DNA from: Naegleria gruberi
Lineage: Eukaryota
Assembly (NCBI GenBank): GCA_000004985.1
Contig: GG738845.1
DNA length: 64,000 nt
Strand: one strand, 5' to 3'
Notes under the pieces: model-generated
Seen by the model: only the letters and a program-made list of their open reading frames with translations
What the model was told of the DNA's origin: nothing
The model's database searches: none
Translations under genes and position numbers: made by a program
Shown here: positions 13,701 to 52,633 of the stretch, in pieces
Numbering within the stretch: position 1 is the first letter of the stretch
Layout: every line of letters starts with the position of its first letter

Positions 13701-13823
13701 CAACATCTTGATTTGACAGTCCAACAAAAAAACCAACAAGTACTTCAGTTAAAAACTTCCCTTGATAATTTAGTACAAGCATTCCAAAAGCTAAAGATAG
13801 CCCAAAGAGAAAATTTATTTTAA
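10756..13823 (+). CDS. Large coiled-coil protein, multi-exon. Proposed exons: 10756..10823, 10867..11029, about 11069/11074..11263, 11305..13823. Identity unknown.
   Basis: Small ORFs 10871..11062 and 11053..11391 and the large ORF 11358..13823 link through GTAAGT/GTATGT...AG introns of 41-44 nt. Intron 1 is 10824..10866; intron 3 is 11264..11304. The frame across intron 2 does not close with the obvious GTAAGT(11030)/TTAG(11068) pair (see findings). The body is a continuous heptad-rich E/K/Q coiled coil. Confidence 0.5.
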
Positions 13824-13841
13824 AGTAAAAAAAATTGCATA

Positions 13842-16800
13842 ATGATCAAAAATGACATTTATTCATCATCGGAATCTGATGACTCTGTAATGTTGAGCAG
13901 TGATGACAGTGACGAGGAAAATACATTGAAAAACGCTTTAAATTCTGCAAGAGAATTATCTAATATTAAACCTAATTTTGGCTATTCTTTCGACAATATA
14001 TCAACTTTTATACCAAACTTTGAAAACGGTATTAACAACAACCACCAAATTTACAACATTTCCCAAGCTATTGACTCTTCTGATACTACTAATTTGAATA
14101 TTTCCGATAGACTACTACATTTGAAGGAAGGGCTAAATTTTAATGAAAAGTATAAGCAATTACTGCAAAGCGAGATTGAAAAAATAGAGGAAGCACAAAG
14201 AAATGTAGGAACCATTCAGAGGGACATCAGAAAAGAGTTAATACAACGACAGAAAGGTCCTCCAATGTCACTTTATCCATCCCGAAAGAATCTTTCTCAA
14301 AATAATGGGAAAATATCAAAAAAGTTGGCTTGTGAATTTTTTGTAAACCTGGCTCAATCAAAGTTAAAAGCCTCAGGTAGTTCTGCTATTATTGTTGATG
14401 AGTACAATACTAGGATACTACAATCGGCTGCTATTGCATCGAAAGGAGCAGAAAAACCTAAAAAATCGAAAAAACAACAAAAAAAGAAAAAAAGAAACAC
14501 AGAGGATGAGGAATATATTAGTGACTCTGAATTCCAGTCTGATGATGATGGATATGATGAAGAAGTTGATAATGAAATAGATACAATAGAGGAGATGGCT
14601 GAAAATACAGTAATTATTCAGGGACCAGCTCCAAACTCTGATACACTCACTAGACAAGAATTTCTCAAACTTGTTCCACTTGTGTTTGATACTAAAAAGT
14701 GGTCTAACAATGAAATTAAAAATATTAGATATGCTGTCAGATTGCAACATCAAGAAATGGAGTGTAAGAGAGTTTTTGAAACATGTAAAGGAGATAGTAA
14801 CCTTTTAAAAAAAGAATTTGAGAAGGTTAAAAACATGTCAGGTGAGGAGTTAGAAAATATAGAGAGCTCGAAAATTGATTGGGAAAAAGTAGCAAAATTT
14901 TATGTAAAAACTAGGAAACCTGAAGAATGCAGGAAATTTTGGGAAATTGAACTGGCAAAAGATATTAAAAAAGATAACTGGTCTAAAGAAGAAGATATTA
15001 ATTTATTATATGTTGCAGACGATTCAAAGGGCCATGATTGGTCGAAAATATCCAACAAGCTTTATGAAACTCAACCTTTAAAAAGAAGACCTATTCATTG
15101 TTTCAGAAGGTACCAACGAAGTTTAAATACAAATATGATGAGAAGTAAATGGACTGAAGAAGAAGACAGGAAACTTATGGAGGCAGTAAAGTCATTTGGT
15201 GAAAAGAATTGGCAACAGATAGCCAATCAATTAGAAGAAAGGACAGGACAGCAGTGTCTGCACCGTTGGATGAAAACACTCAATCCTGCAATTAAAAGAG
15301 GAAGATGGACAGTTGAAGAGGATAAGCGGCTTTTAATGGCAGTTAATGCATACCCTTCCAACAATTGGGTTCTTGTTAATAGACACACACCTGGAAGAAC
15401 AGACGTGCAATGTAGAGAGCGGTGGTGTAACATTCTAAATCCAGTCCTGAATGTTGGACCCTGGACGAAAGAAGAAGATGAAAGTCTCAAGCGTGCCATT
15501 AAAGATCTAGGAGCTGGTAACTGGTCTAAAATTGCTGAGGTAATGCATCCCAGAACTGATAATCAGTGCTGGAGACGTTGGAGGTTGATAAGCTCAGAAG
15601 AAGTATCAGATTATAGAAAGAAGATTTACAAGAGGGAAAAGGCTCTCGTAAAAAACTTTGTTGGCAGAGAAAAGGAAAGACCTGATATAACTGCAGATGA
15701 TCTTCAAATAACTCATCCAGAAAGCGACAATAACTTGATCCAACTATCTATTTCAGAATTTGTAGAAAAAGATAGATCTCTGATTTTCTCTCAAAACTCA
15801 TTACTTTCAAGTACTATTTGTGTAGAATCAATGCAATCATTGCATCAATCACTCACCATCCCAAAACTAAAGAGTGTTCTTGAAATAGAATGGCAAAGAA
15901 TGGACCAAATACGTTTTCTTTTGGAGAAAACACCTTACTTTATTGGAGTGCCACTATCAAACATTTTGAAAAGAGTTATGAGCTTGATGTTTTCTCTCAA
16001 GGGTACACTCACTATCAAGCACATTTATATTCCAGAACTACCTAAAAAAGAAATTAGAATACAGACCTTTAAAAGCATGGTGGTTCCAATAGAAAGACCA
16101 GTTTTCTCTTTCCCTTGCATTGTACCAACCACTCTTTCTCCTTCTCTTCCATCAGTTACCGCAACTAGTGTATCCCTTAATGCTTTAGCAACTCTTCAAG
16201 ATGTACTATACAATAGAGGTAGCCCAAAAATGGCTACCACTACAGCAAAGGTGATAGATATCCAATCTAGTTCAGAGAAACTATCAACTTTCCAAATACC
16301 TGCTTTTCAGCCAACAACCAAAGACTGGGTTTATGAACCGCCAACTCTTGTTCACAATAACGCTTCTATTTTACATTCACCAGAGTTTAAAACTCTATCT
16401 AGTGTGTTTAATTCATTATTCCAAAAGCCTATGCAACAAACGATTGGTAAATTGGCAGAGAGATTACCTCATTTATTGAGACGAGTTCCTCATGCTGATA
16501 TTTTGAATAAGTCTATGGAAGAATCACAGACCAATTACCAACACATATGTCAAAATTCAAAAGATCCATTTATTATACAACAATCAAAATGGGAAACAGA
16601 AAAAACTCTCAGTGATCCACCTACATTTTCCACCGTTTTTTCATTATATCACCATTTACCAACTGATGATTTGTTTAATAGAAACGAAGCAAGCACTCTT
16701 CCCCAAGCTCCTTTGATTCTGGTTAAGCCCAAAGGTGTGAGAGGCAGACCAAAAGGATCAAAAAACAAAAAGACACTCGAACTCGAGAGACAGAGAAGGG

Positions 16801-18318: not shown

Positions 18319-19986
18319 CTGTAAAATAAATGAACTAGCTCTGATAAGGTTAGCCAATTATGCAAATCTCTTTCGGAAATGCTTGTATCAGAAACTCTGT
18401 TTCTTACAAATGTTTGAGTAGCAAGTTGATTAACATCTTGAGTCAATTTGATATCCTTGTAATTGTTCCTTGCTATTTGGCTAATATAAGATTGGAATAA
18501 TAGGGACTGACTATCATTAATTGCAGGAATTTCTAAAGATTTTTCAGGCAATAATTTAACCAAATAATTTACATCTCTGTGGAATAGACTTTTACCTTTG
18601 GAAATTATTACAACTGGAATGTCAACATTCATTATAAGTGGATGATATGAATAATCATAGTCAACTTTTTGTGAAGAAATAAGAGTTGATAGATGGGAAA
18701 TATTTCTCATAGCTCCTTCAAGTAAATTTCCTTCCCGAAGAGAGTTTTCGTCAATAATGAGATGTGTGCCTGATGGTAATTGTAAAAGGCCTGATTTTAA
18801 CTTATCCATTTGATAATCCTTAACAGGGGCTAGTCTGGTATGTTCAAGATTACTGCTTGTCATTTCAAAGAGGTACGAAGAGGGAAGAAGGGTGTGAAGA
18901 ATTTCATCCATCTTTTTAGCAGTATCCTTGTCACAGTTATAGATATTCAGAATGAATTTTCCAAGTGTTACCCCATAATTATGAGAACGACTTTACAATG
19001 CCATTATTATTTAAATTAATTGTGTTAACTTACACTCTGCTAATAAGATTGTACAATAAAAGTTCTGCAACCAGACAATCACCTCCAAAAGCTAAAGTTA
19101 AATATTCCAATAACTGATTTCTGACAATATCCCATGAATACTCCGAATTAGTAATTGTTACAACATCAAACACAGATTTGTATTTTTTAAAGAACAAGAC
19201 ATGTAATCGTGGGACAAGAGTTGCTTCGGGTCTAAAATTGCAAAATTCCTCCTCTTCATCTGTACACATTTTGTTAGGTGACTCAAATGTTAAAATTCCT
19301 ACAAAATCTACAAGTTCAGTATTTTTGAATCCAAAGTCTTCTCCATATAGTTTAATAAGACAAGCGAGACCATCTTCTCCTTTGATGGGGAAGTCCAACA
19401 TCTCATCTCTATCAGAAACAACAGATCTCTTATCAGAAGTAGAAATATTTTCATGAAGTTGTCTTTTTTTCTTTGTTTCCAATTCCAGCTCATCTGACAT
19501 GTCATCTGATTCACCTTCTGAATCTTCATCATTTCTTTTCCTTTTTGTGTTTTGTACTGTTGATTTTTTGAGTGTTGATTTGTTCACTTCTTCGTTTTTG
19601 TTGGTGTTATTAGGGTAGAATGAAGTTCGTGACCACTTTGCCTCCCCTGGTATCGGAATGCAATAGAATAATTCTCTTTCAATCATCACATTGTCGTTGA
19701 AAAAATTATTGTCATCATACCCTGCTTCTCTATACAAATAATTTGCTGTTACTAATTCAGTATTATGTACATCTTGTATGATGCCTCTATATTTGACCAG
19801 AGTATTTGGGGTTGACATTGGATTTAAAGAAGGAATAATTTTAAACATTTCGTCAGATCCGAAATGTTCTTCGTAGCATTTGGACATTTGTAAATGAACA
19901 TCGATTGGATTGGCAAGATTTTTACTTTTAATCAGCTCTTCCAATATTTGAAAGGGGTTTTCTATCATTAGATTGGTTGCATTCAT
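18315..19986 (-). CDS. MCMBP: MCM-binding protein (MCMBP) homolog. Two exons, 19036..19986 and 18315..18926, with a 109-nt intron.
   Basis: FYCIPIPGEAKW, GLACLIKLYGEDFGFKNTELVDFVGILT, LVPRLHVLF, KLKSGLLQLPSGTHLIIDEN and QKVDYDYSYH match conserved MCMBP blocks. ORFs 19030..19986 and 18315..18911 join in frame via GTGTAAGT...GACAAG. The stop codon overlaps the syntaxin stop on the other strand. Confidence 0.75.
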
Positions 19987-20015
19987 TTTTTTTATTTAAT
20001 TATTAAATAATTCAA

Positions 20016-20627
20016 TTACAGCATTTCCTCTACTAACGACTTTAGAACATCTGCATGACATGGCCGTTCATACCTCTCACAAAAACACCCAATTTTCTTT
20101 CCTTTCAGTTCATGTAAAGAATTTTTCAAGTTTGGTTGAGAAAGAATGTAATCTCTGTACTTTTCTAAGGATTCTTTCTTGGGTAGTTTTTCGAAAGGGT
20201 TTGCCCATTTGGACTCGTTTAATTGCCACCCACTATGAAAACATCTTGAGCCAACATAAACATCACAATTTTGTATCGTTTCACCTTTCTTTTTTCTTAT
20301 TCTAACAACTTGTGTTTGAGTGTCAATAATTTCAATATCTAATTGGTTTCTTGTTTTCGGTTTCTTTTTCTTGGGAGAAATAACGCACGGGATGAGTCTA
20401 CCGGTTGTTTGACTCTTAATAAACAGGTTTCCATTTAGTTTTTTCATTGGAATATTTACATTACTATTGTACAGTTCTTGGTTGCTTTCCATAACATCTG
20501 AAAAATATCGTTTCCTTTTTTGATCATTTATTTCCGGTTCATCCATTAGGCTGTTCTCTGTTGTTTGGGTTTCTTCTGAAAATGTAAGAACAAAAATGCC
20601 TGCCTTCTTCTCCTGGGAGGTTAACAT
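20016..20627 (-). CDS. DUF4326-family domain protein (C-terminal domain) with an N-terminal basic extension
   Basis: C-terminal 90 aa read DVYVGSR...W...KWANPF...YRDYI...LHELKGKKIGCFCERYERPCHADVL. This matches the DUF4326 pattern as I recall it (GnPF ... L.GK.L.C.C.P..CHGDVL); the match is recalled from memory and should be confirmed by an HMM search against PF14216. Confidence 0.5.
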   Translation of the reverse strand: MLTSQEKKAGIFVLTFSEETQTTENSLMDEPEINDQKRKRYFSDVMESNQELYNSNVNIPMKKLNGNLFIKSQTTGRLIPCVISPKKKKPKTRNQLDIEIIDTQTQVVRIRKKKGETIQNCDVYVGSRCFHSGWQLNESKWANPFEKLPKKESLEKYRDYILSQPNLKNSLHELKGKKIGCFCERYERPCHADVLKSLVEEML

Positions 20628-20962
20628 TTTTTTTTATTGTTAGTTCTTGCCCACACTGGAATTGGTTGGCATCAAAAATATTAACTATTTTTTTTAAAAA
20701 AATGAAACCATAACCACAAAACATCAAATCAAACAACCAACAACCAACAGCTAGAAAAATGTATACATAGTATCGAACGAAAGATCAAAAACACAGCTCA
20801 CGTCCACAAAGGATCGTTACTAATTCTGTCATGATACCCTCGCCAGTGTGAGCTCATACACCACATGTTGACTAAAGAAACAGCATTCAGACCCTCAAGT
20901 CAAGTGACTGTGCCGAAGTCATCATACAATACTTTTTTCTTTTAATTATTTAATTTAATTCT

Positions 20963-23665
20963 TTATTCATTCCACACACATTTTTCATAATTAAAAGAAA
21001 AATCTTCTGAACACTCCACTTCTACCATGTATGACTTCGAAACAATCTCTACTTTTTCCAATAATGAAATAATATCATTCATCTTGTCGGATCGAATTAT
21101 CGACTCCTCTGTAAAGTAGTCTCCAATTTGTTGCAAAGAGGAAAGCCTTTTGAACCATTCAGCTAATTTTCTCTTATTGAATGCGTTAACGACAAACAAA
21201 ACAAATTTAACATCATTTGGCTCTGTGAGCTTGATTTTGGCACTAGAAACTAGATCATTAATACCATGATAAATGTCCTTGATTTCTCCTTGTGTTTTTT
21301 CTGCCTTTTCAACGTAGAACTTGATAAAATCCCAAAAGTAATACCTTCCAAAGAATTTAAAAGCTCTAAAACCAACTTCAAATATTGCAAGAAGTGATCT
21401 AGATAATTTTCTTTTAACAATTTTCTCCATGTCCTCAGATAACTCTATCTTACATTTAATTTCAGCCAAAATAGATTTCAAGTTTTCAATTGGTGGTGCA
21501 TTTGGAAAGTCAATTAAAAGGTTATCTGCAATTAATTGTTGTATCTCCTCACTTGTTTCAAACAGGTCAATATTTTTGATTTTGAATTTAGATTGTTTTT
21601 TAGAGAGGAATATCAAATCTTCCTTGGTATTAGGTTGATAAAGGATGGATGAAGGGGCAAAGAATTCTTTGAGAAATTCTGTGGATGTGAAAAAGGATTC
21701 CCAAAAGTCCTTACTGAAAAAACCATTTACATTTAAATAGTACACATAAAGAATAGACAGAGAAAAATATTCCTTATCTAAACTTGTTGATAATTTCAAA
21801 TCTGAAAAGGATTTTTTAAATCCTCTCAACTTTTTGACAAGCTTTTTCAATTTGGTTTGAGTACTAATTTCAGATTCCTTCTTAATAGAGTTCATAAGAA
21901 AATCTACAAATTTTGGAATAATAATATTGTAGAGGAAGGTTGGTGTGTTGTGCCCAATACTACATTGGTCAGACAGGATTAGAGAGTATTGTCTAGCTAT
22001 TTCTATTACGTATTGGTCGTTATAGTTTAAAATTACCTTATTTTCTTCATCTAACTTTAACTCTCCTTTGGCTAGTTTTTTGTATAAAGTAGATAAGGTA
22101 TTGTCTATCATCTCAATTGCTGGAGGTGTTTGTGTTTTGTTTGCTTTGCTTGGAAGTACTGCTTTTTTCTTTTCTTTGTTTTCATCTATTTGCTTGCCCT
22201 CTTCTTTCCTCTCGTCTTGATAATTTTCATTTTTTCCTTGATCACTTACATTCTCAATTTGAAAATTACTTTCCACTTTATCTAATATAATCTTAGATTT
22301 TCCTGCTTCATTATTGGATTGATTATTAAAGACAACTTTTTGTTCTAACTCTGAAATAGATTTTTCTGAAATCTTGATATGGGTTTCCTTTTCTGAAATA
22401 GTTTTTTGAAATTTTGTTTCTTGATCGAGAAGTTCAATAAGTTTCTGTTTAAGTTCATTTTCTTTTTTGGATAATTCTGATAATGATTTTTCAATAATTG
22501 TCTTTTCAAGTTCATGGGATTCAATTTGTTGTTCTTTTTCTTGTTTTTCTTTCTCATAACTCTTGACACTATTTTCTTTTTCTAATATATACTCTTCAAG
22601 CTTAGCTATTTGATTACTAATGTCAACAAGGTTCCTGTCTAGCTCTAAACTTGTTATTTCTAAAATCTTGACATTTCTTCCCTTTTCTAATATTGATTTT
22701 TCCAAAATCAGAACTTGACCTTCTTTTTCTACTATGCAACCTTCAAGTTTTGATTCCTGTTTATCAAGTTCAATAATTTTTTTTTCGATATCAGAAATTG
22801 TATTTTCTAACGTCTTAATATTATTTTCCTTTTTTAAAATTGATTTCTCATATTTCTTAATATTATTTGTCTTCTCTACAATGGATACTTCAAGATTTTT
22901 TTCTTGAGTAACAAGTTCTGAGAGTTTTTTGTCAAGCTCTGTAATTGTCATTTCTAAATTTTCTATAGTATTTTCCTTCTCTACAATAGAAGACTCTTGA
23001 AAATGTTGCGTTTCAACAAGAGAGTTTTTAGCTTGGTTATTAAGGTCAACAACTTTTTGTTCTAACTTTGAAATAGATTTTCTGATATTGGTTTCCTTTT
23101 TTGAAATAGTTTCTTGAAGTTTTGTTTCTTGATTGAGTAGTTCAATAAGCTTCTGTTCAAGTTCTGTAATTATCATTTCTAAATTTTTGATGATATTTTC
23201 CCTCTCTATAATAGAAGACTCTTTGAAATGTTGTGTTTCAACAAGCTCATTTTCTTTTTTGGATAATTCTGATAATGATCTTTCAATAATTGTCTTTTCA
23301 AGTTCAAGTTTTCCAATTTTTTGTTCTTTTTCTTTTTTTTCAATTTCTAGTTTGTAAACATTATCATGGAGTTCTTTGGTTTTGCTATCCAAATCTGCCT
23401 TTTCTTCCATTGATTTAGTATATTCAGATTGTTGATTCATTAATTGTACTTCAAGATCTGCAATTATTTCACACATTGCAACTTTTCTTGATGAAAAATC
23501 TGCAAAATCGTGCTGCAATCTTTCTTTCTGCAAACTGGTCTCTTTCACAATGTCTTCCACTTCCTTATTCATTGAAGAAATATTTTCAACATTTTGTGTT
23601 TCCTTTTCCAAATTTTCTTTTAACAATAACATTTGATTTTGCAAAGAGGATTTTTGCTCTTCCAA
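20963..23665 (-). CDS. Giant coiled-coil protein, C-terminal segment: about 540 aa of coiled-coil repeats plus a roughly 360-aa non-coiled C-terminal domain
   Basis: 900-aa ORF. The upstream ORF (23620..27393) overlaps it by 46 nt in a different frame, and coding-like sequence is continuous across the junction. Probably the same gene as the next three entries. Confidence 0.6.
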   Translation of the reverse strand: MEEQKSSLQNQMLLLKENLEKETQNVENISSMNKEVEDIVKETSLQKERLQHDFADFSSRKVAMCEIIADLEVQLMNQQSEYTKSMEEKADLDSKTKELHDNVYKLEIEKKEKEQKIGKLELEKTIIERSLSELSKKENELVETQHFKESSIIERENIIKNLEMIITELEQKLIELLNQETKLQETISKKETNIRKSISKLEQKVVDLNNQAKNSLVETQHFQESSIVEKENTIENLEMTITELDKKLSELVTQEKNLEVSIVEKTNNIKKYEKSILKKENNIKTLENTISDIEKKIIELDKQESKLEGCIVEKEGQVLILEKSILEKGRNVKILEITSLELDRNLVDISNQIAKLEEYILEKENSVKSYEKEKQEKEQQIESHELEKTIIEKSLSELSKKENELKQKLIELLDQETKFQKTISEKETHIKISEKSISELEQKVVFNNQSNNEAGKSKIILDKVESNFQIENVSDQGKNENYQDERKEEGKQIDENKEKKKAVLPSKANKTQTPPAIEMIDNTLSTLYKKLAKGELKLDEENKVILNYNDQYVIEIARQYSLILSDQCSIGHNTPTFLYNIIIPKFVDFLMNSIKKESEISTQTKLKKLVKKLRGFKKSFSDLKLSTSLDKEYFSLSILYVYYLNVNGFFSKDFWESFFTSTEFLKEFFAPSSILYQPNTKEDLIFLSKKQSKFKIKNIDLFETSEEIQQLIADNLLIDFPNAPPIENLKSILAEIKCKIELSEDMEKIVKRKLSRSLLAIFEVGFRAFKFFGRYYFWDFIKFYVEKAEKTQGEIKDIYHGINDLVSSAKIKLTEPNDVKFVLFVVNAFNKRKLAEWFKRLSSLQQIGDYFTEESIIRSDKMNDIISLLEKVEIVSKSYMVEVECSEDFSFNYEKCVWNE
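22330..23340. repeat. Intragenic DNA repeats (about 85-97% identical blocks of 60-140 nt) encoding repeated 50-aa coiled-coil units
   Basis: 22332..22470 is near-identical to 23049..23165. 22461..22525 is near-identical to 23249..23305. 22931..23020 is near-identical to 23163..23248. Protein repeats: ...SLSELSKKENEL..., ETQHF(K/Q)ESSI(I/V)E(R/K)EN(I/T)I(K/E)NLEM(I/T)ITEL.... Confidence 0.8.
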
Positions 23666-26600
23666 ATTAATAGCTTTGAATCATACTCGGAAATATCTTT
23701 TCTCAATTTTTCAACAACTTTTGTGTCTTCTTCTACTTGTAGTGTTGACTGAATGATATTATCTTGCAAATTATTGGCTGTAAATCTTAATTCATGCAGT
23801 TCGTGTTGCTTTTTCGAAATTGAAATTTCGTTATCCTTAATTTCTGTTTCCAATTTGAAAATTTCATTCTCTAACCCCTTTATCTTTTCCAAACATGTAA
23901 TTTCATTATTTTGTAGAATTTGCTTTTTGTGTTCTAGTTTTTTCTCAGTATCTCTTCCACTATTACATCTTTCTTTTAATACCCTTAGTGTTTCCTCATA
24001 TTTGAGAATAGATTCGTTTAATGATCTTTCTTCTTCTTCTTCTAACTTTTTTAGCATTTCCAATTTTTCAAGAGTTTTCAACTTGGAGTTGTCTTTTAAT
24101 GTTTCTAAAATATCTGTTTTTTCTGAATTGTGCTTATCTATCAACATTATTTCTTCCTCTAATCTCATTAATTGATCCTTGAGTTGTTTCTCTTCCTCTT
24201 CCTTAACTTCCTTCTTCTTGACTGCATCTTTTAACTTTATGCCTAGTTCTTCTATTAGTACCTTCAACGCTTCTAAATGTACTTCTTCAGTTTTAATACA
24301 TATTTCAAACTCCTTAACTTTAGATCTGATGGAATGTGTGTTATCTAACAATATTTTATGCTTCTCTTCTTCTTCTTCAAGCTCTTCTTCAATTTTTTGG
24401 GCATCGAATGTGTACTTGTCAAAAAGTAGTTGTTTTTCGTCTAGCAACAACATTGAATTTTGAATTCCATTGCTCAAATTCTGAATATTGTTTTCAACTA
24501 TTTCTAGTGCACTCTTAAGTTGGTTTTCCTTGTTGTTTCTTTCTGCAATTATCATGTTGAGATTCTCCAATTTCTCTTTTTTGGTTTCTTCAAGGGACTG
24601 AATAGTCTTTTCGGCCTCTTCGATACTGTTGGTTATTCTTTCCAGTTCTGATTCAATACCTTTTCTTTTAGTAATTATTACATCAAGACTACTCAATTTA
24701 ATGCCAATTTTAGATTGGAAACAATTAAAAGATTCCTCTTCAAAAGAAATTGAATTCTCAATTTCTGAAATTTTCCTTTCAATTTCCTTTTTTTGTTCTT
24801 CCTTTAATACTAATTCTCTGGTCTTTGAATCGTGCTGAACTCTGATTTCCTCCATTTTACTCTCTATTTCTTCTTGGTTCTTTTTAAATTTTTCTTCTAC
24901 CATATTTCTATAGAGAATCTTATCATGTAATATTAATTCTTGTTCCTCTAACTTTTCTCTAAATATACAAATATCCTCCTTTTGTAATTCTATTCTGTCT
25001 TCTATTTGAGATATAGATTCGCTCAATTTATGTTCTTCATCAGCTAACTTTGGTCCTAATTCAACTAGATTTTTGTAATTCTCTTCTAGAGATTTAATGT
25101 ATAATTCCATTTCTTTGTTTTGGTTTTCTTTTTCATAGACATTCTCTTTAAGCTTTTCTGTAAGCTGAGTAATTTCAAGATTAGTTTGAAGAGAATTGGC
25201 TAATTGCTTTTCTACTTCTTCTAATTTTTGTTGAAATATGATTTGCTCTTTTTCAGCGGTTTGTAAAAGTGTTTCTTTTGATTTCAAAAACCCATCATTT
25301 GCCTTTTTTTTCATTTCTATTTCTTCGACTTTGAGTTTTTCAAGATCATGCTCATAAGTTTTTCTTGCTTTTAGAATGCAACATTCAACACGTGTCTGTT
25401 CTTGTTCTAATGAAAGTTGCAACTCATTCTCAACCCTATTTTTTTCAATTTCAAGGGATTTTACTTTTTCTGATTTTATATCCCTTATCTTGGATTCAAG
25501 TGCTGCTACTTGATCAGATATAATTTGCTCATTTGATTTCAAAAAAATTTCCAAATTTTCTCGTTTTTCGTTGATTGTAAGGATCAAACAATTAAGATGA
25601 TCAATATGGTTTTTAACTTCTACCATTGGCAAGTATTCGTAGAATTTTTGGAAAGCTTGTTCCTCAAATGTCTTGGAATCCAACTGTTGAGAAACTATTT
25701 GTTTCAATTCATCACGCATTTCACTTTGTGTTTTCAAGAACACTTCTGCCTCAGTGCAAATCTTTGAAAATATTGGTATTTTCTTGGCTTTTTCAATTAA
25801 TAACCCCAATATTTCATCAGGATTTTTTTGCTCCATTTGAAGCAAAATCTGATTGGAAATATTACTTTCTAAAAATATAGATGTCTTTCTTTGTACCAGT
25901 TTGTCCATCGAGGATAAAATTTCCGCATCTTGCTCAAGCTCTGACAATTTACACAAAATATCATCAATAGACGAGACACTTATTTCATCGTTATTAAGAA
26001 TATTCTCAGTGTAATTTAGTAGATCGTTTCTTTTTTTGAGTTTCTCCAACTTATTAGTTAAAAATATTTTTTCTTTCTCCATAAAATTTCCTTCCAATGT
26101 ATTAATAATCTCCTCAATTTGGGTAATATTATTAGAGGAAATATAATCTTTCATATTTTTTCTGATAAGATTAATTTTTTGAAATAAATCATTTGATTTC
26201 TTTTGTAAAAGCACAAAATTGGTATTTTCATTCCCTTCCTGACAAATGCTACTAACTTTTTCATTCCATAAACGTAATAAGCATTCATTACCCAACTTCA
26301 TGATAACCTCAAATTCCTCCATGAGACGTTTTTCATTATACTCTTTCCATTGATTGGTTATTTCGATAATATCTTTTTTTGATAGGAAATTTGTAAATTT
26401 TGATATATACTCTTCCAATCTCTTGCTTACATGAATACTTTCGAATTGATCCAAAATCTTATTTTTTGAAGTTTGGTTTTGTATAATGAGGTAATCCACT
26501 TCATCCAATAATTTGTTGTCAAAAAACTCTGTACAATCTTTGCACTGTTGGAATAAAGTTATTATATTTGAGAAATCTCTCTCAATTAATCTACATTCAA

Positions 26601-27393
26601 GATCTATAAAATGTTGGATTTCCAACTCTGCTTTTTTAGCTTTCTCTAATAATTGTAAATTTTTTAAATCAGTACTATTCTCAATTATATTAACAACTTC
26701 ATGAATCCTATTAAGATTTTTTTGTTTTAAAGCGCTATTATACTCTTCTAATAACTCTTCTTCTCTATCTAATTGTGATAACACAGAAATAGCCCTATTT
26801 AAATGTTCGGGAAGAGAATTTGTAAAACGTTTGCCTATGGATATGGCTTTTTCCAAGTTGGTTTTTTCCCTGGCCACAATAGCATTTTCAAGCAGAACCC
26901 TGCTTTCTTGAATAGAACCTAGAATGCTATTCATTTGGTCGATTGAAGAAATGAAACTTGACTTTAGGTGATCCTCTTTTTCAATAGTTTTTAAACAAGC
27001 TTTCAGCTTGCCCTCCTCTCTTTCCGCAATGGCTTCATCCACTAAAAGTTCCATCTTTTGGATGTCATATCTTTCCCACAATTTCCATTGACTGTTGACA
27101 AAGCTTTCACTAAAATTTGCAGAAATACTAGACAATACTGCACTAAATTCTTCCTTTCCAAGTGATAAATTAATTGGAAGTAACGAATTTTGTGTTTGAT
27201 GTAATTGGCATACTCGGCTCCAAATTTCCGAAATTTCTGCGTCTTTAAAATCGTTTCTAATTTCTTTCTGAACAATTTGGAAATTTGATAAATCTCTTGT
27301 TTTTAACATTGTTTCTAGCTTGTATTTGATGTCTAACTCCTCCACGGAAACGGAGAGCAGAGAATCAAGCAGTAGTTTCGCTTCATTTCTCAA
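23620..27393 (-). CDS. Giant coiled-coil protein, central segment (1257 aa of E/K/L-rich heptads)
   Basis: Long ORF adjoining the gap at its 5' side and frame-shifted relative to 20963..23665 at its 3' side. Confidence 0.6.
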   Translation of the reverse strand: MRNEAKLLLDSLLSVSVEELDIKYKLETMLKTRDLSNFQIVQKEIRNDFKDAEISEIWSRVCQLHQTQNSLLPINLSLGKEEFSAVLSSISANFSESFVNSQWKLWERYDIQKMELLVDEAIAEREEGKLKACLKTIEKEDHLKSSFISSIDQMNSILGSIQESRVLLENAIVAREKTNLEKAISIGKRFTNSLPEHLNRAISVLSQLDREEELLEEYNSALKQKNLNRIHEVVNIIENSTDLKNLQLLEKAKKAELEIQHFIDLECRLIERDFSNIITLFQQCKDCTEFFDNKLLDEVDYLIIQNQTSKNKILDQFESIHVSKRLEEYISKFTNFLSKKDIIEITNQWKEYNEKRLMEEFEVIMKLGNECLLRLWNEKVSSICQEGNENTNFVLLQKKSNDLFQKINLIRKNMKDYISSNNITQIEEIINTLEGNFMEKEKIFLTNKLEKLKKRNDLLNYTENILNNDEISVSSIDDILCKLSELEQDAEILSSMDKLVQRKTSIFLESNISNQILLQMEQKNPDEILGLLIEKAKKIPIFSKICTEAEVFLKTQSEMRDELKQIVSQQLDSKTFEEQAFQKFYEYLPMVEVKNHIDHLNCLILTINEKRENLEIFLKSNEQIISDQVAALESKIRDIKSEKVKSLEIEKNRVENELQLSLEQEQTRVECCILKARKTYEHDLEKLKVEEIEMKKKANDGFLKSKETLLQTAEKEQIIFQQKLEEVEKQLANSLQTNLEITQLTEKLKENVYEKENQNKEMELYIKSLEENYKNLVELGPKLADEEHKLSESISQIEDRIELQKEDICIFREKLEEQELILHDKILYRNMVEEKFKKNQEEIESKMEEIRVQHDSKTRELVLKEEQKKEIERKISEIENSISFEEESFNCFQSKIGIKLSSLDVIITKRKGIESELERITNSIEEAEKTIQSLEETKKEKLENLNMIIAERNNKENQLKSALEIVENNIQNLSNGIQNSMLLLDEKQLLFDKYTFDAQKIEEELEEEEEKHKILLDNTHSIRSKVKEFEICIKTEEVHLEALKVLIEELGIKLKDAVKKKEVKEEEEKQLKDQLMRLEEEIMLIDKHNSEKTDILETLKDNSKLKTLEKLEMLKKLEEEEERSLNESILKYEETLRVLKERCNSGRDTEKKLEHKKQILQNNEITCLEKIKGLENEIFKLETEIKDNEISISKKQHELHELRFTANNLQDNIIQSTLQVEEDTKVVEKLRKDISEYDSKLLIWKSKNPLCKIKCYC

Positions 27394-27431
27394 ATTCTGC
27401 CATTTTTCTGTTTCTGATTTTATTCCATCTG

Positions 27432-27811
27432 NNNNNNNNNNNNNNNNNNNNNNNNNNNNNNNNNNNNNNNNNNNNNNNNNNNNNNNNNNNNNNNNNNNNN
27501 NNNNNNNNNNNNNNNNNNNNNNNNNNNNNNNNNNNNNNNNNNNNNNNNNNNNNNNNNNNNNNNNNNNNNNNNNNNNNNNNNNNNNNNNNNNNNNNNNNNN
27601 NNNNNNNNNNNNNNNNNNNNNNNNNNNNNNNNNNNNNNNNNNNNNNNNNNNNNNNNNNNNNNNNNNNNNNNNNNNNNNNNNNNNNNNNNNNNNNNNNNNN
27701 NNNNNNNNNNNNNNNNNNNNNNNNNNNNNNNNNNNNNNNNNNNNNNNNNNNNNNNNNNNNNNNNNNNNNNNNNNNNNNNNNNNNNNNNNNNNNNNNNNNN
27801 NNNNNNNNNNN
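27432..27811. other. Assembly gap (380 N)
   Basis: Uninterrupted run of n inside the giant coiled-coil gene. ORF-track entries containing X (27320..27844 plus, 27420..28712 minus) are artefacts of it. Confidence 0.99.
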
Positions 27812-28712
27812 TCTTTATACCAGACTCTAGAAGTATTTGTGTGAATTTTTGTTGTTTTTCTGCAGAAAACGTTTCAGACTTTTCTATAATATTTTTGATT
27901 CGTTGTACCACTTCCTTCTTTCTTCTTTCCTTCTCTTCTACCATGTTTTGATCGGTATCATTAAGAGAGAGAAATGTAAGAGCGTCTTTTAGAATATCTG
28001 AAGCAATAATCCTTTCGATTTCATTCAAAAAAGAGTTAACAGCTGCTTTCACTTGATTAAGGTCTTGTTTTTGAAGAGCTATTGACAGCTCCTTCCGTTT
28101 TTCCAAGGCTCCAGAAAATGATGAAAGACAGGTATGGGTTTGTTTGAGTAATCTAACCATATTAGTAGGAACCTGACTGTAAAATATTTCTAAATCTTGC
28201 TGATTACCTTTTTCCAGGGATTTTACAAAAGAATTTATCATTTCTATGATCCTTTTTGTTTCATCCACCAATCTTTGAGTTTTGTTTACCTTGTGGGATG
28301 TTTCTTTTCCAAACTGGGTCGAGAATATTGTTAGGTTCTTGGAGTAGTTATTATCAAAACTTTCTACTTTTAATCTTAATTTCTCATCTCCAAAATTCAC
28401 AACTTCCAGGATATGACCATCAATGTTATTGTACAATTCATTAAGAAAGGTAGTTGCTTCCTTCTCAATATTGTCCATACTTTGAATGAAGTTTAGTTTT
28501 TCCTGAAATAATTTTGTTGCATTTTCTACAGCATTTCTCAATGACTGATCTTTAAAATCAAATATATTTTGCTTTAAACCTGCCCTATAGACAGTTAAAA
28601 GATGGTGGATCTCTTCTAATTTTTCGTTTTTGATAGAAACTTCAAGGCTTTGCAAAAACTCATCTCTCTTTCTTCCTTTCCATCTCCTTAACAGAAATGA
28701 GTTAATGATCAA
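27812..28712 (-). CDS. Giant coiled-coil protein, segment upstream of the assembly gap
   Basis: ORF 27420..28712 in the track is bridged by X residues across the N-run. Only 27812..28712 (plus 27420..27431) is real sequence. Its 5' end joins ORF 28724..29239 through a candidate 41-nt GTAGGT...TTAAG intron. Confidence 0.5.
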
Positions 28713-28723
28713 TATAACTTTAC

Positions 28724-29239
28724 CTACATTTTATCATTTCCTGTAGAAAATTCAATAGAATTTAAAAAAGAATCCAAGTTTTTTTGCAAATTAACAATAC
28801 TACCACTAACTTTCTCTTGAAATCTTGAATATTGAGCTTGCATAGATTTCATTTCGTCCTCTATGGAGTCAATTTTAGTCCTTATTACTTCTATTCCTTG
28901 TGAAAAATCATCTTGATCCAATAAAACAAAATTTTCCTTCACATTCTTATCACCAGTGCTTTTTTCTCTTGGGTTTGAAGGTGATTTAAGATGGTCATCT
29001 CTTTCCGAAGGACTTTCAAATCTTGGTTGGTATCTAATCAAGCTTGGGCTTTTCGTTGGACTTTCCAAACGTAAAGTGTTGTTACTACTATTATACAAAG
29101 ATGTGTTTTCAAGAGAAGTTTCCTTCCTCACTGGTGATTTTAAAGTTGGCGAAGCATATCTTTTGAATATTTCACTGGGAGTAGAAAAAGTTGCTCCAAA
29201 TGTCTTTGAGTGCGATGATGGTGTTCTCCTCTCACTCAT
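28724..29239 (-). CDS. Giant coiled-coil protein, probable first exon (S/P-rich N-terminus, MSERRTPSS...)
   Basis: ATG-initiated ORF. The in-frame TAG at its end is followed directly by GTAAAG. A GTAGGT donor 2 nt earlier plus the acceptor TTAAG at 28692 joins in frame to ...RWKGRKRDEFLQ. Confidence 0.45.
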   Translation of the reverse strand: MSERRTPSSHSKTFGATFSTPSEIFKRYASPTLKSPVRKETSLENTSLYNSSNNTLRLESPTKSPSLIRYQPRFESPSERDDHLKSPSNPREKSTGDKNVKENFVLLDQDDFSQGIEVIRTKIDSIEDEMKSMQAQYSRFQEKVSGSIVNLQKNLDSFLNSIEFSTGNDKM

Positions 29240-29312
29240 TGTTGTGACAAATATTTTTGATGATAAGAATGTGGGCAGTGCTTAGAACCCTCCAACTAAC
29301 TTGTAGTCAAAA

Positions 29313-29324
29313 ATGCGCCAAAAC
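29313..29324. promoter_or_regulatory. E2F-like GC motif (GCGCCAAAA; reverse complement TTTTGGCGC) upstream of the CH-domain gene
   Basis: 20 bp upstream of the ATG at 29343. Exact match to the TTTTGGCGC half of the E2F consensus. Confidence 0.3.
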
Positions 29325-29342
29325 AACATTTAAAAAAATGCA

Positions 29343-30947
29343 ATGATGCCTCAAGTCGATAGAAACCCACAAACTACTCAACCCCTACGAAGGTTGGTTT
29401 TTATTCCTGAATCTATGAAAGAAATGTTTGGAAAACGGAAGATATCAATTTCATCTAATAGACATGAATTAAATGAACAAAAAAAACCAAACTTCAATTC
29501 CGATATAATAGTACCTCAAAGAGACCCAATAACTACAGGCCCTTTGAAATCTCTCCATATCACATACAATTCAAAAATACTTTCTAGAGATTATAAGGAA
29601 GGCGAAACGGTCCATATCCAAGATTGTCACAAAAACAAAGATTTACAAAAAGAAAAAAAGCTTTCACATACTACAACCAAACAACAAACAGAAGCTCTTC
29701 AAAATAGTATCAAAGAAATAGAACCCACACGAAATAGAAACCAAACTTCATCTAGAAGGGAGAACAGTTTGTACACAGCAGAAAAAATGAAAGATTTGGA
29801 ACAATCAACATTATTTTGGCTAAGAAGTTTGGGAATGTTACCCATTCATAAACCTATTCCAGTAACGTTAGAAGAAATTGAAGAAGAAATCAGAAATGGC
29901 ACATTGTTATGCAATTTAGTAGAATTTATTATTGGAGAACCAATTTTAGGAGTAAATAGAAATCCTAAAATTGAAACATCATCAAAATCCAATATTTCAA
30001 AGGCATTCGATCCCCTAAGAAATAAGAAGTGGATGCACCAGAAAAACCTAATAGAAGAGGATATTTTAATTGGAAACAAAAACACTATTCTAGCTCTATT
30101 TGAAGATATTCGAAGATACTACGATGGAATTCCTCAGAGAACTTCAAAAACCAAGTCTCCTTATCTTGGGAATTACTCCCCCATTGGTCTAGGTGTACCT
30201 CATTACACTTTCCAGAATATTCCACCAGTTCCTAATGATTTACCCATTCAACAGAGCACAAAACAATCCCTTATCCAACAAATGATGAGTTCAAACTTTT
30301 ATGATTGTGAAAAAATCCCATTTACAACAGCTTCTCCGACAGAGCTTAAACCAACTACACCAACTCCTACAAGGGGCTCAGCAATAGAACAAAGAGTATG
30401 TCCAGAACCATTCTTCCCATCGTCACAACTAAAATCTGTATTCCTTCCCTCGCCCTCAGACATTATTCAAACTTTGGAGCTAATGAATAAGGACTCGAAG
30501 ACCAAACAGACTAATACCCCAATTCAACAAGACTTTGAAGACTGTGATCTAGTGAGAAACGAATTCAAAGAAAACCAATTTATAGAAGAATCAAAAAAAA
30601 AGAAACATATTCTTTCGTGGATTGAAAAAGGGCTAGGTATCAAAGTAGATATGGACACATTCTTTTTTGAATTAATGAATGGAACTAAACTTGCCGAAAT
30701 AGTTGCTAGGTGTGAGATGTCTCACGAACTGAGGGGAGTTGAAAAAAATCCAAAAAAACCAGCTCACAAAATTAACAATGTAAATAGAGCTCTTTCAGTA
30801 CTAAGGGAGCACAAAGATATGACAAATTGTAAATTTATTTGGTCAACTAATGATATTGTAAATGGTAACGTATCTGTAATATTGGGACTTTTATCTGATT
30901 TATTTTCATGTTATTGCAGGAGTAAATCTAGATACTTTGAAGAATAA
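29343..30947 (+). CDS. Protein with N- and C-terminal calponin-homology (CH)-like domains
   Basis: N-terminal block FWLRSLGMLPIHKP...EEIRNGTLLCNLVEFIIGE. C-terminal block LSWIEKGLGIKVDMD..ELMNGTKLAEIV ... NVNRALSVLRE ... IVNGNVSVILGLLSDLF. Both fit CH-domain patterns. Confidence 0.55.
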   Translation: MMPQVDRNPQTTQPLRRLVFIPESMKEMFGKRKISISSNRHELNEQKKPNFNSDIIVPQRDPITTGPLKSLHITYNSKILSRDYKEGETVHIQDCHKNKDLQKEKKLSHTTTKQQTEALQNSIKEIEPTRNRNQTSSRRENSLYTAEKMKDLEQSTLFWLRSLGMLPIHKPIPVTLEEIEEEIRNGTLLCNLVEFIIGEPILGVNRNPKIETSSKSNISKAFDPLRNKKWMHQKNLIEEDILIGNKNTILALFEDIRRYYDGIPQRTSKTKSPYLGNYSPIGLGVPHYTFQNIPPVPNDLPIQQSTKQSLIQQMMSSNFYDCEKIPFTTASPTELKPTTPTPTRGSAIEQRVCPEPFFPSSQLKSVFLPSPSDIIQTLELMNKDSKTKQTNTPIQQDFEDCDLVRNEFKENQFIEESKKKKHILSWIEKGLGIKVDMDTFFFELMNGTKLAEIVARCEMSHELRGVEKNPKKPAHKINNVNRALSVLREHKDMTNCKFIWSTNDIVNGNVSVILGLLSDLFSCYCRSKSRYFEE

Positions 30948-44787: not shown

Positions 44788-45118
44788 TCTTTTTTTGAAA
44801 ATTACTATTGTCTAAAACTTTGAGTTTGTAATCGTTTCGGTGTTTGTATTGGTTCTTGTTGTATTTTTTTGATTTTTTGTTTTAAATTATCGGAAGGATT
44901 CCTTTGAGTGCTAATAAAACACGTGTTCGGGAAGACGTATTGTGTGGACTGGATTTTGTTTAGATTTTTTCATATTATGCTAGTCATTGCTACTAGCTAA
45001 CAACATTATAATTGTTGTTTTTAAATTTTAAATTGGACGAATTTATTATCTTACTAGTACAATATCAATACAAGTAATTTTCTTCTTATTACCTCCCAAA
45101 GTCACAAACAATTAAAAA

Positions 45119-52591: not shown

Positions 52592-52633
52592 CAAGATTTT
52601 TTAATAAAAATTCATAAAAAATCTTTCAAAAAA

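What the first reader, a model, noticed from the sequence alone, without database searches (positions are those of the whole stretch)
20963..29239. Giant coiled-coil gene (about 8.3 kb, over 2700 aa) fragmented by a scaffold gap, a 1-nt frame discontinuity and one probable intron
Four minus-strand ORFs (28724..29239, 27420..28712, 23620..27393, 20963..23665) are colinear and all coiled-coil. Only three things separate them:
- a candidate 41-nt intron at about 28693..28733
- the 380-N gap
- a frame change within 23620..23680

At the frame change the amino-acid reading ...DISEYDSKLLIWKSKNPL switches to ...AINLEEQKSSLQNQM with no loss of coding character. That points to a single-base indel, either an assembly or homopolymer error or a genuine disabling mutation, rather than two genes.

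The protein ends in a roughly 360-aa non-coiled domain (20963..22060) that I cannot assign to a family.
Basis: partly seen in the sequence, partly recalled or inferred. Interest (0 to 1): 0.55.

Follow-up and report, generated by a model that had tools for sequence, protein, structure and literature searches.

The report
Giant RUN-domain coiled-coil gene, mis-annotated
The four open reading frames are pieces of one roughly 2,700-residue Naegleria gruberi gene for a long coiled-coil protein ending in a RUN (small-GTPase-binding) domain; it is broken only by one real 41-base intron, an assembly gap and a one-base frame slip, so this is a gene-model correction, not a new kind of biology.

Summary
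The window is Naegleria gruberi. The four minus-strand ORFs are colinear pieces of one gene, orthologous to the single 2,862-aa N. fowleri protein FDP41_008764 ("RUN domain-containing protein").

- **Intron:** N. fowleri has an intron at the same codon and phase. An independent Illumina assembly of a 99.65%-identical strain has the identical sequence there.
- **Gap:** the 380-N gap (27432..27811) hides about 77 aa, judged from the ortholog.
- **Frame break:** confined to 23620..23683. It needs one extra base, most likely in the TTT run 23664-23666, alternatively the AAA run 23675-23677. No credible intron or slippery site explains it. I could not tell a sequencing error from a real strain or allele mutation.
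- **Coiled coil:** only about 950 aa (22364..25218) shows a strong heptad pattern; the N-terminal ~1,200 aa is helical but not classically coiled.
- **Public annotation:** it appears to hold only two fragments, of 171 aa and 310 aa.

This is an ordinary finding and a useful annotation fix; its interest is low to moderate.

The parts
28728..29239 (-). Exon 1, with ATG at 29237-29239. Encodes aa 1-170 plus 2 nt of codon 171. The first ~100 aa (28940..29239) are S/T/P-rich and probably disordered.
   Evidence: The ORF read through into the intron is annotated publicly as the 171-aa 'predicted protein' NAEGRDRAFT_61228.
28687..28727 (-). 41-nt spliceosomal intron, GTAGGT...TTAAG, phase 2, carrying an in-frame TAG.
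   Evidence: Splicing gives ...GNDKM|RWKGRKRDEF..., which aligns without gaps to N. fowleri ...DSEKS|KWKFKRKEDF.... There N. fowleri has a GTAAGT...CAAG intron of about 130 nt at the same codon and phase. The sequence is identical in the independent assembly L002. A 43-nt intron in the neighbouring MCM-BP gene was verified.
27812..28686 (-). Exon 2, the part before the gap: a helical, non-heptad region.
   Evidence: 39% identity to N. fowleri P0019 aa 419-788, E 1e-79. The AF2 model is all-helical but of low confidence, pLDDT 68.
27432..27811 (.). Scaffold gap of 380 N inside exon 2. About 77 aa are missing, judged from the ortholog.
   Evidence: The last residue before the gap aligns to P0019 aa 788, and residue 37 after the gap to P0019 aa 902.
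23664..27431 (-). Exon 2 from the gap to the frame break: helical region, then the first half of the coiled-coil rod.
   Evidence: The frame is open from 27429. CD aa 37-681 match P0019 aa 902-1569, E 2e-12. Heptad signal is strong from about 25218 downwards.
23620..23683 (-). Zone where both frames are open, so one base is missing relative to a continuous reading. The best site is the TTT run 23664-23666 (...DSKLLI|LEEQKSS...); the alternative is the AAA run 23675-23677 (...DSK|AINLEEQ...).
   Evidence: Codon log-odds favour the TTT run by about 8:1.
20963..23663 (-). Exon 2 after the frame break, ending in the stop codon at 20963-20965.
   Evidence: CD aa 1753-2153 match P0019 aa 2435-2858, 41% identity, E 4e-91.
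22364..25218 (-). Coiled-coil rod of about 950 aa with strong heptad periodicity. The frame break lies in its middle. It contains internal duplications: 22375-22549 versus 23083-23341 at about 90% DNA identity.
21560..22126 (-). Helical N-terminal extension of the terminal domain, about 190 aa. Among the homologues retrieved it is shared by Naegleria, Percolomonas, Acrasis and two metagenome proteins of unknown organism. It has no specific PDB match.
   Evidence: Alignment A1. The AF2 model has pLDDT 89.7 and pTM 0.88 as one compact unit with the RUN domain. Fold searches match only the RUN half.
20987..21559 (-). RUN domain. The Pfam core is 21047..21430.

Best explanation
The region 20963..29239 (minus strand) is one Naegleria gruberi gene of two exons. 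It encodes a protein of roughly 2,700 aa (2,617 aa readable, plus about 77-126 aa hidden in the gap).

The protein's layout, N to C:
- an S/T/P-rich tail of about 100 aa;
- a helical, weakly heptad region of about 1,200 aa;
- a dimer-type coiled-coil rod of about 950 aa, which would span about 140 nm if continuous;
- a short linker;
- a C-terminal module of about 190 aa of lineage-specific helices packed against a RUN domain.

It is the ortholog of N. fowleri FDP41_008764 (2,862 aa).

The three interruptions are of three different kinds. One is a real 41-nt intron at a conserved position. One is an assembly gap. One is a missing base in a short homopolymer inside the rod. I judge that missing base somewhat more likely (about 55:40) to be an error of the reference sequence than a real strain- or allele-specific lesion.

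Inferred mechanism, not shown: the RUN module docks onto a GTP-bound Rab-, Rap- or Arl-type GTPase on a membrane. The rod holds the N-terminal region far away, so the protein acts as a long tether or adaptor between a membrane compartment and another partner, such as the cytoskeleton, a motor or a second membrane.
For: - **Organism and public models.** The last 310 aa are 100% identical to N. gruberi NAEGRDRAFT_77707. ORF A is NAEGRDRAFT_61228.
- **Ortholog.** An exhaustive HMMER search with the terminal 387 aa finds N. fowleri proteins of 2,213 aa and (through the cluster) 2,862 aa, matching end to end at their C-termini.
- **Colinearity.** Three BLASTP blocks align in order: AB 103-462 to Nf 419-788 (E 1e-79); CD 37-681 to Nf 902-1569 (E 2e-12); CD 1753-2153 to Nf 2435-2858 (E 4e-91).
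- **Intron.** Same codon and phase in N. fowleri. The sequence, including the in-frame TAG, is identical in an independent Illumina assembly of a 99.65%-identical strain. Introns of 41-46 nt are normal here.
- **Frame break.** It is confined to 64 nt. The -1 frame is coiled-coil-like from 23665 onward, while frame C degenerates into W, P and C codons. None of 56 frame-restoring GT-AG candidates has a donor like the GTAAGT, GTACGT and GTAGGT donors seen here.
- **Downstream part still constrained.** A 900-codon open frame persists. Between the two strains, the only indel in it is an in-frame 9-nt deletion, while the non-coding indels are 1 and 2 nt.
- **RUN domain.**
- **Same architecture elsewhere.** Long proteins with only a C-terminal RUN occur in Percolomonas (1,932 aa) and in a metagenome protein (2,471 aa).
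Against: - There are no reads or transcripts, so continuity across the frame break and the gap is not shown directly for N. gruberi.
- The rod itself does not align significantly to the N. fowleri rod. The ortholog therefore supports continuity by flanking colinearity only.
- The reference is a Sanger assembly, according to the genome paper as I recall it. One-base errors in 3-nt homopolymers are uncommon in such assemblies, which keeps a real mutation plausible.
- Same-strand genes in this window can lie only 20-45 nt apart, so close packing alone does not exclude two genes.
- The tether or GTPase-effector function is inferred from solved RUN-GTPase complexes of distant homologues (14-17% identity). 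No GTPase partner is known.
Confidence: 0.85

Rival explanations
1. The one-base frame break is real. It would be a recent frameshift in the laboratory strain NEG-M, or on one haplotype of a heterozygous genome. In that case this copy of the gene is truncated after about 1,800 aa and loses its RUN domain: a young pseudogene or null allele.
For: The break sits in clean sequence 3.7 kb from the gap. I assume a low Sanger indel error rate here; this rests on general knowledge. Strain-level divergence of 0.35-0.6%, including indels, exists in this species, so allele-specific lesions are plausible. The downstream frame being fully intact fits a very recent event as well as it fits an error.
Against: The gene is conserved across Naegleria with the RUN module at 41-43% identity. 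The downstream 900 codons carry no further lesion, and their only inter-strain indel is in frame. One-base homopolymer frame errors are demonstrably present in this same gene in the N. fowleri and N. lovaniensis assemblies, although I believe those are long-read assemblies.
Confidence: 0.35
2. These are two functional genes produced by fission. An N-terminal protein of about 1,800 aa would end at TAA 23620, and an independent 889-aa coiled-coil-RUN protein would start at ATG 23630-23632.
For: An ATG lies 11 codons into the downstream ORF as listed. Same-strand spacers in this genome can be tiny. The downstream frame looks constrained.
Against: The two reading frames overlap, leaving no spacer. 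The downstream frame already reads as coiled coil for 11-16 codons before that ATG. The N. fowleri ortholog is one protein.
Confidence: 0.05
3. The frame change is bridged biologically, either by an unconventional short intron or by programmed -1 ribosomal frameshifting.
For: The required shift is -1, and the A-site codon AAG could re-pair with AAA at T TCA AAG. Frame-restoring GT-AG pairs of 59-80 nt exist.
Against: T TCA AAG is not an X XXY YYZ slippery heptamer. The candidate donors (GTTGAA, GTTGTT, GTAGAA) differ from the GTAAGT, GTACGT and GTAGGT donors seen in this window. The candidate 'introns' are purine-rich, are open in frame C, and read as good coiled coil.
Confidence: 0.03

Closest known systems
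Naegleria fowleri FDP41_008764 (XP_044557626.1, UniProt A0A6A5BDJ7, 'RUN domain-containing protein', 2,862 aa) and the N. lovaniensis fragment C9374_010824
   Same: Colinear similarity in the N-terminal helical region (39%), the middle region (23%) and the C-terminal module (41-43%). The intron is at the same codon and phase. Both have a long rod between these regions and a RUN domain at the extreme C-terminus.
   Different: The N. fowleri S/T/P-rich N-terminus is about 320 aa longer. Its rod is about 200 aa shorter and lacks the N. gruberi internal duplications. It has an extra intron after FQDK that N. gruberi lacks. Neither protein has any experimental characterisation that I could find.
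RUSC1 (NESCA) and RUSC2 (Iporin) RUN domains (PDB 4giw; 6if2, the complex with Rab35)
   Different: Identity is only 14-17%. RUSC proteins carry an SH3 domain after the RUN domain, which is absent here. They have no giant coiled coil. The 190-aa helical extension is not found in them.
FYCO1 and the RUFY family (RUN + long coiled coil + FYVE)
   Different: The domain order is reversed, because their RUN domain is N-terminal. Pfam detects no FYVE, LIR or GOLD region here.
Golgins and other long coiled-coil tethers (for example GRIP-domain golgins)
   Same: The logic is the same: a very long rod with a small C-terminal GTPase-binding module that anchors it to a membrane.
   Different: There is no GRIP, GRAB or transmembrane anchor; the anchor here is a RUN domain. 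No golgin family is hit in Pfam.

Membership tests
RUN domain superfamily (Pfam PF02759) | Sequence match to the family profile above the curated gathering score | tested here: met
   36.0 bits against a cut-off of 22, E 8.9e-9, at aa 746-873 of the 900-aa ORF. The orthologues and homologues P0019, P0004, P0007 and P0012 also pass.
RUN domain superfamily (Pfam PF02759) | All-helical RUN fold | tested here: met
RUN domain superfamily (Pfam PF02759) | Binding of a GTP-bound Rab, Rap or Arl GTPase | not testable with these tools
   Inferred only from solved complexes of distant homologues (6if2, 3cwz, 8jc5, 8jca, listed).
Orthologue of N. fowleri FDP41_008764 | Colinear similarity over N-terminal, middle and C-terminal regions | tested here: met
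   Three ordered BLASTP blocks with E 1e-79, 2e-12 and 4e-91. This was the best non-self hit of an exhaustive search.
Orthologue of N. fowleri FDP41_008764 | Shared intron position | tested here: met
   A phase-2 intron in the aligned codon (DKM|RW versus EKS|KW).
Orthologue of N. fowleri FDP41_008764 | Conserved gene neighbourhood | tested here: not met
   N. fowleri neighbours are TRAM/LAG1, hemerythrin and MFS genes. N. gruberi neighbours are DUF4326, MCM-BP, a CH-domain gene and a DEAD-box helicase. This is not decisive at this evolutionary distance.
RUSC1/RUSC2 family | SH3 domain C-terminal to the RUN domain | tested here: not met
   The protein ends about 7 aa after the RUN fold, and Pfam finds no SH3 domain.
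FYCO1 / RUFY family | N-terminal RUN domain and C-terminal FYVE domain | tested here: not met
   The RUN domain is at the extreme C-terminus, and there is no FYVE hit in any of the four parts.
Golgins (GRIP/GRAB) | C-terminal GRIP or GRAB domain | tested here: not met
   No such Pfam hit; the terminal module is a RUN domain.
Coiled-coil rod protein | Sustained heptad periodicity of hydrophobic residues with few P/G | tested here: met
   In a home-made heptad scan, 37-81% of windows (mostly 50-80%) exceed the 95th percentile of shuffles for aa ~1300-2250, with 0-3 P+G per 100 aa. The signal is weak elsewhere. No standard predictor (COILS or MARCOIL) was available.

The most novel reading that the evidence does not exclude
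The giant proteins with a C-terminal 'helical extension + RUN' module could form a distinct, uncharacterised class of very long GTPase-anchored tethers. So far they are seen in Naegleria, Percolomonas, Acrasis and uncultured relatives. In N. gruberi NEG-M the gene may be genuinely split by a frameshift into an N-terminal piece and a separately expressed RUN piece, which would be a natural 'cut' of a tether.
Probability: 0.1. Interest if true: 0.4.

Novelty: new member of a known kind. Interest (0 to 1): 0.25.

Why it matters
The value is mainly for annotation. The public N. gruberi gene set appears to represent this 8.3-kb gene only by a 171-aa and a 310-aa fragment, so about 80% of one of the organism's largest proteins is missing from proteome-based comparisons. 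I infer the absence of anything between them from their adjacent accession numbers.

The corrected model gives a full-length member of a long-tether family with a C-terminal RUN domain, found in Heterolobosea and a few other protists. That is of some interest for membrane-traffic evolution, and for N. fowleri cell biology, where the ortholog is equally uncharacterised.

The case also shows that this gene is broken by one-base indels in three separate Naegleria assemblies. That is a caution for automated gene calling on long, AT-rich, repetitive coiled-coil genes.

Tried and rejected
1. **Word-indexed protein searches.** Searches with the 1,257-aa ORF and with the whole 2,617-aa reconstruction returned nothing. 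The second search should have found the known 310-aa self-hit, so the candidate filter is saturated by coiled-coil words. These negatives are uninformative, and I withdrew my early inference.
2. **Exact look-ups of window proteins in the contig index.** Most failed because the N. gruberi reference is not in that index.
3. **JGI metagenome scans.** Scans for the junction and for the gap flank gave 0 hits.
4. **The independent strain (ERZ929261).** Its contigs cover 27999-29998 and 18582-22822, but not the frame break or the gap. I could not retrieve the neighbouring contigs because look-up is by exact protein only.
5. **An intron at the frame break.** I listed 56 frame-restoring GT-AG pairs; none had a credible donor.
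6. **Programmed -1 frameshifting.** There is no canonical slippery heptamer.
7. **AF2 of the exon-2 N-terminal helical region.** With only two sequences it gave pLDDT 68, too weak for a fold search.
8. **The afdb50 fold library** was unavailable.
9. **Literature.** Nothing was found on this protein or on project PRJEB11402.
Full report
**What is in the sequence.**
The window has a single N run, 27432..27811, of 380 N. ORF A stops at a TAG (28724-28726), and ORF B's frame opens just downstream.

At the other end, ORF C reads ...KLRKDISEYDSKLLIWKSKNPLCKIKCYC and stops at 23620-23622. The -1 frame opens after a TGA at 23681-23683 and reads FKAINLEEQKSSLQNQMLLLKENLEKE... for 900 codons. ORF C's frame is open right up to the gap edge. 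The window averages about 32% G+C and this region 25-30%. By my estimate about 8% of random codons there would be stops, so open frames of this length are not chance.

**Organism and public annotation.**
The last 310 aa are 100% identical to Naegleria gruberi NAEGRDRAFT_77707 (EFC50679.1, UniProt D2UXS6, 'RUN domain-containing protein'). ORF A as a whole is the 171-aa 'predicted protein' NAEGRDRAFT_61228 (EFC50680.1, D2UXS7).

These two have consecutive GenBank and UniProt accessions. The DEAD-box helicase two genes further on is D2UXS9, so UniProt numbering follows genomic order. I therefore infer, without seeing the record, that nothing is annotated between the two fragments. That would leave about 7 kb of coding sequence unrepresented.

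Two word-indexed searches that returned nothing are not evidence for this. The second one missed a known self-hit, which shows the filter is saturated by coiled-coil words.

**One gene: the ortholog.**
An exhaustive HMMER search with the terminal 387 aa found the following:
- an N. fowleri protein of 2,213 aa, matching over all 387 residues at its C-terminus (E 7e-73, 43% identity);
- an N. lovaniensis fragment;
- Percolomonas, Acrasis and metagenome proteins.

The N. fowleri cluster also holds the 2,862-aa model FDP41_008764.

I built a reconstruction from exon 1 spliced to exon 2, the gap, and one base added at the frame break. It aligns colinearly to FDP41_008764 in three blocks:

| N. gruberi reconstruction | N. 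fowleri | Identity | E-value |
|---|---|---|---|
| AB aa 103-462 | aa 419-788 | 39% | 1e-79 |
| CD aa 37-681 | aa 902-1569 | 23% | 2e-12 |
| CD aa 1753-2153 | aa 2435-2858 | 41% | 4e-91 |

The rod between the last two blocks does not align significantly. Continuity across the frame break therefore rests on flanking colinearity, not on residue-level alignment.

**The intron.**
The intron is GTAGGT...TTAAG, 41 nt, at 28687..28727. Splicing gives GNDKM|RWKGRKRDEF. This aligns without gaps to N. fowleri DSEKS|KWKFKRKEDF, and the N. fowleri gene has a GTAAGT...CAAG intron in the same codon at the same phase.

An independent Illumina metagenome assembly (ERZ929261, run ERR1078381) contains a strain 99.65% identical over 27999-29998. 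Its sequence is identical through the intron, including the in-frame TAG, so the stop is not a sequencing error.

Tiny introns are normal here. The neighbouring MCM-BP gene has a 43-nt GTAAGT...AAAG intron at 18991..19033. Removing it turns a half-length Pfam match into one continuous match to PF09739 (E 1e-106). A 46-nt intron is visible near 35050.

**The gap.**
The last residue before the gap aligns to N. fowleri aa 788, and residue 37 after the gap to aa 902. About 77 aa (roughly 230 nt) are therefore missing, compatible with the 380-N placeholder. The full protein should be about 2,690-2,740 aa.

**The frame break.**
The switch must lie between 23683 and 23620 and requires one extra base, a -1 relation. 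I trained codon log-odds on the rod itself. Frame C stays favoured through ATT (23665-23667) and collapses at TGG. The -1 frame becomes favoured from TTG (23663-23665).

The best repair is therefore one more T in the TTT run 23664-23666, giving ...DSKLLILEEQKSS.... It is favoured about 8:1 over one more A in the AAA run 23675-23677, which gives ...DSKAINLEEQ....

Of 56 frame-restoring GT-AG pairs, none has a donor like the GTAAGT, GTACGT or GTAGGT donors seen locally, and the short candidates are purine-rich coding-like sequence. T TCA AAG is not a canonical slippery heptamer.

The part downstream of the break still looks constrained. It keeps 900 open codons. Comparison with the second strain over 18582-22822 shows 9 substitutions and 4 indels. 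The two coding indels are 9 nt (22243-22251, in this gene's linker) and 3 nt (in MCM-BP). The two non-coding indels are 1 and 2 nt.

I could not decide between a reference error and a real recent or allele-specific mutation, because the second strain's contigs do not reach the break.

The same gene carries one-base homopolymer frame breaks in two other assemblies:
- In the N. fowleri assembly the break is hidden in a pseudo-intron, and another N. fowleri model reads straight through it.
- In N. lovaniensis the gene is split into 1,001-aa and 659-aa models.

This shows how easily this long AT-rich gene is broken. I believe those are long-read assemblies, whereas I recall N. gruberi being a Sanger assembly. 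My estimate is about 55% error, 35-40% real lesion and 5-8% other explanations.

**The protein.**
A heptad-periodicity scan against shuffles shows a strong coiled-coil signal only for aa ~1300-2250 (22364..25218), about 950 aa with the frame break in the middle. Residues 100-1300 are helical and charged with weak heptad signal. Residues 1-100 are 40% S/T/P. An AF2 model of part of the helical region is all-helical but of low confidence.

The rod contains internal duplications: 22375-22549 versus 23083-23341 at about 90% identity.

The terminal 387 aa fold as one compact helical unit (pLDDT 89.7, pTM 0.88). Its C-terminal half is a RUN domain:
- Pfam PF02759, E 8.9e-9, above the gathering score;
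- profile hits to Iporin/RUSC2, PLEKHM1, RUSC1, PLEKHM2, RUFY3, FYCO1 and Rab6IP1;
- a Foldseek top 10 made up entirely of RUN domains;

The N-terminal half of about 190 aa has no specific structural match. In alignment A1 it is shared only with the Naegleria, Percolomonas and Acrasis proteins and two metagenome proteins of unknown organism. Pfam finds no other domain in this protein or in its long homologues. A Rhodelphis homologue combines a myosin head with a C-terminal RUN domain.

**How it probably works (inference).**
Solved RUN domains bind GTP-bound Rab35, Rab6 and Arl8b, as the PDB entry titles show. A C-terminal GTPase-binding module on a rod of about 140 nm follows the logic of golgins and of FYCO1/RUFY adaptors.

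I therefore propose a long dimeric tether or adaptor. Its RUN end would be anchored to a GTPase-marked membrane, and its N-terminal helical region and disordered tail would engage another partner. It is a member of the RUN superfamily. It is not a member of the RUSC family (no SH3), the FYCO1/RUFY family (reversed order, no FYVE) or the golgin family (no GRIP).

**Verdict.**
This is an ordinary gene whose public model is fragmentary. It is a useful annotation fix with modest biological novelty.

Noticed in passing
L001 about 14810-14865 (N. fowleri VFQX01000064.1): The 2,862-aa N. fowleri model changes frame across a pseudo-intron of about 55 nt in the rod. Another N. fowleri model (CAG4714895.1) reads straight through it (LSLELDIQNLSKDCESL). 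This implies a one-base indel in that assembly, masked by the gene caller.
   Followed up: partly
L005 66-5368 (N. lovaniensis PYSW02000045.1): The N. lovaniensis ortholog is cut by the contig end and split into 1,001-aa and 659-aa models. The split is a one-base A-run indel at about 3311-3337 (GAGAAATGAAG). There is another frame change near 3995-4017.
   Followed up: partly
window 18991..19033 (-): This is a 43-nt GTAAGT...AAAG intron in the MCM-binding-protein gene. The spliced 542-aa product gives one continuous PF09739 match. That exact protein is not in the public protein collection, so the public model probably differs.
   Followed up: yes
window 18582-22822 and 27999-29998 (loci L002, L003, L004): An ENA/Logan metagenome run (ERR1078381, PRJEB11402) contains a 99.4-99.65%-identical N. 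gruberi strain. Its reads could settle both the frame break and the gap. No paper mentioning the project was found.
   Followed up: partly
window 22442 and 22454, versus 23083-23341: Both substitutions that distinguish the second strain in repeat copy 22375-22549 change it to the base of its paralogous copy upstream. This suggests gene conversion between the rod's internal repeats, or short-read collapse.
   Followed up: no
window 13821-13844 and 52589-52636 (+): Consecutive same-strand genes are separated by only about 20-45 nt between the stop codon and the next ATG. Intergenic spacers in this genome can be extremely short.
   Followed up: no
window 45116-52588 (+): Another very long open frame (2,491 codons) lies in the same window. 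I did not examine it.
   Followed up: no
window 20016-20627 (-): The 203-aa DUF4326 protein is present exactly in the ENA/Logan assemblies, but no N. gruberi NCBI protein has exactly this sequence, so the gene may be unannotated or modelled differently.
   Followed up: no
N-terminal helical region, e.g. 28000-28650 and 26300-27300 (-): A short motif recurs in both N. gruberi and N. fowleri: L-x2-[AS]-[ILV]-x3-[polar]-x3-[LIV], for example LENAIVAREKTNLEKAI and LSIALQKQDLNQVKAAV. This suggests a helical repeat unit that no Pfam family captures.
   Followed up: partly
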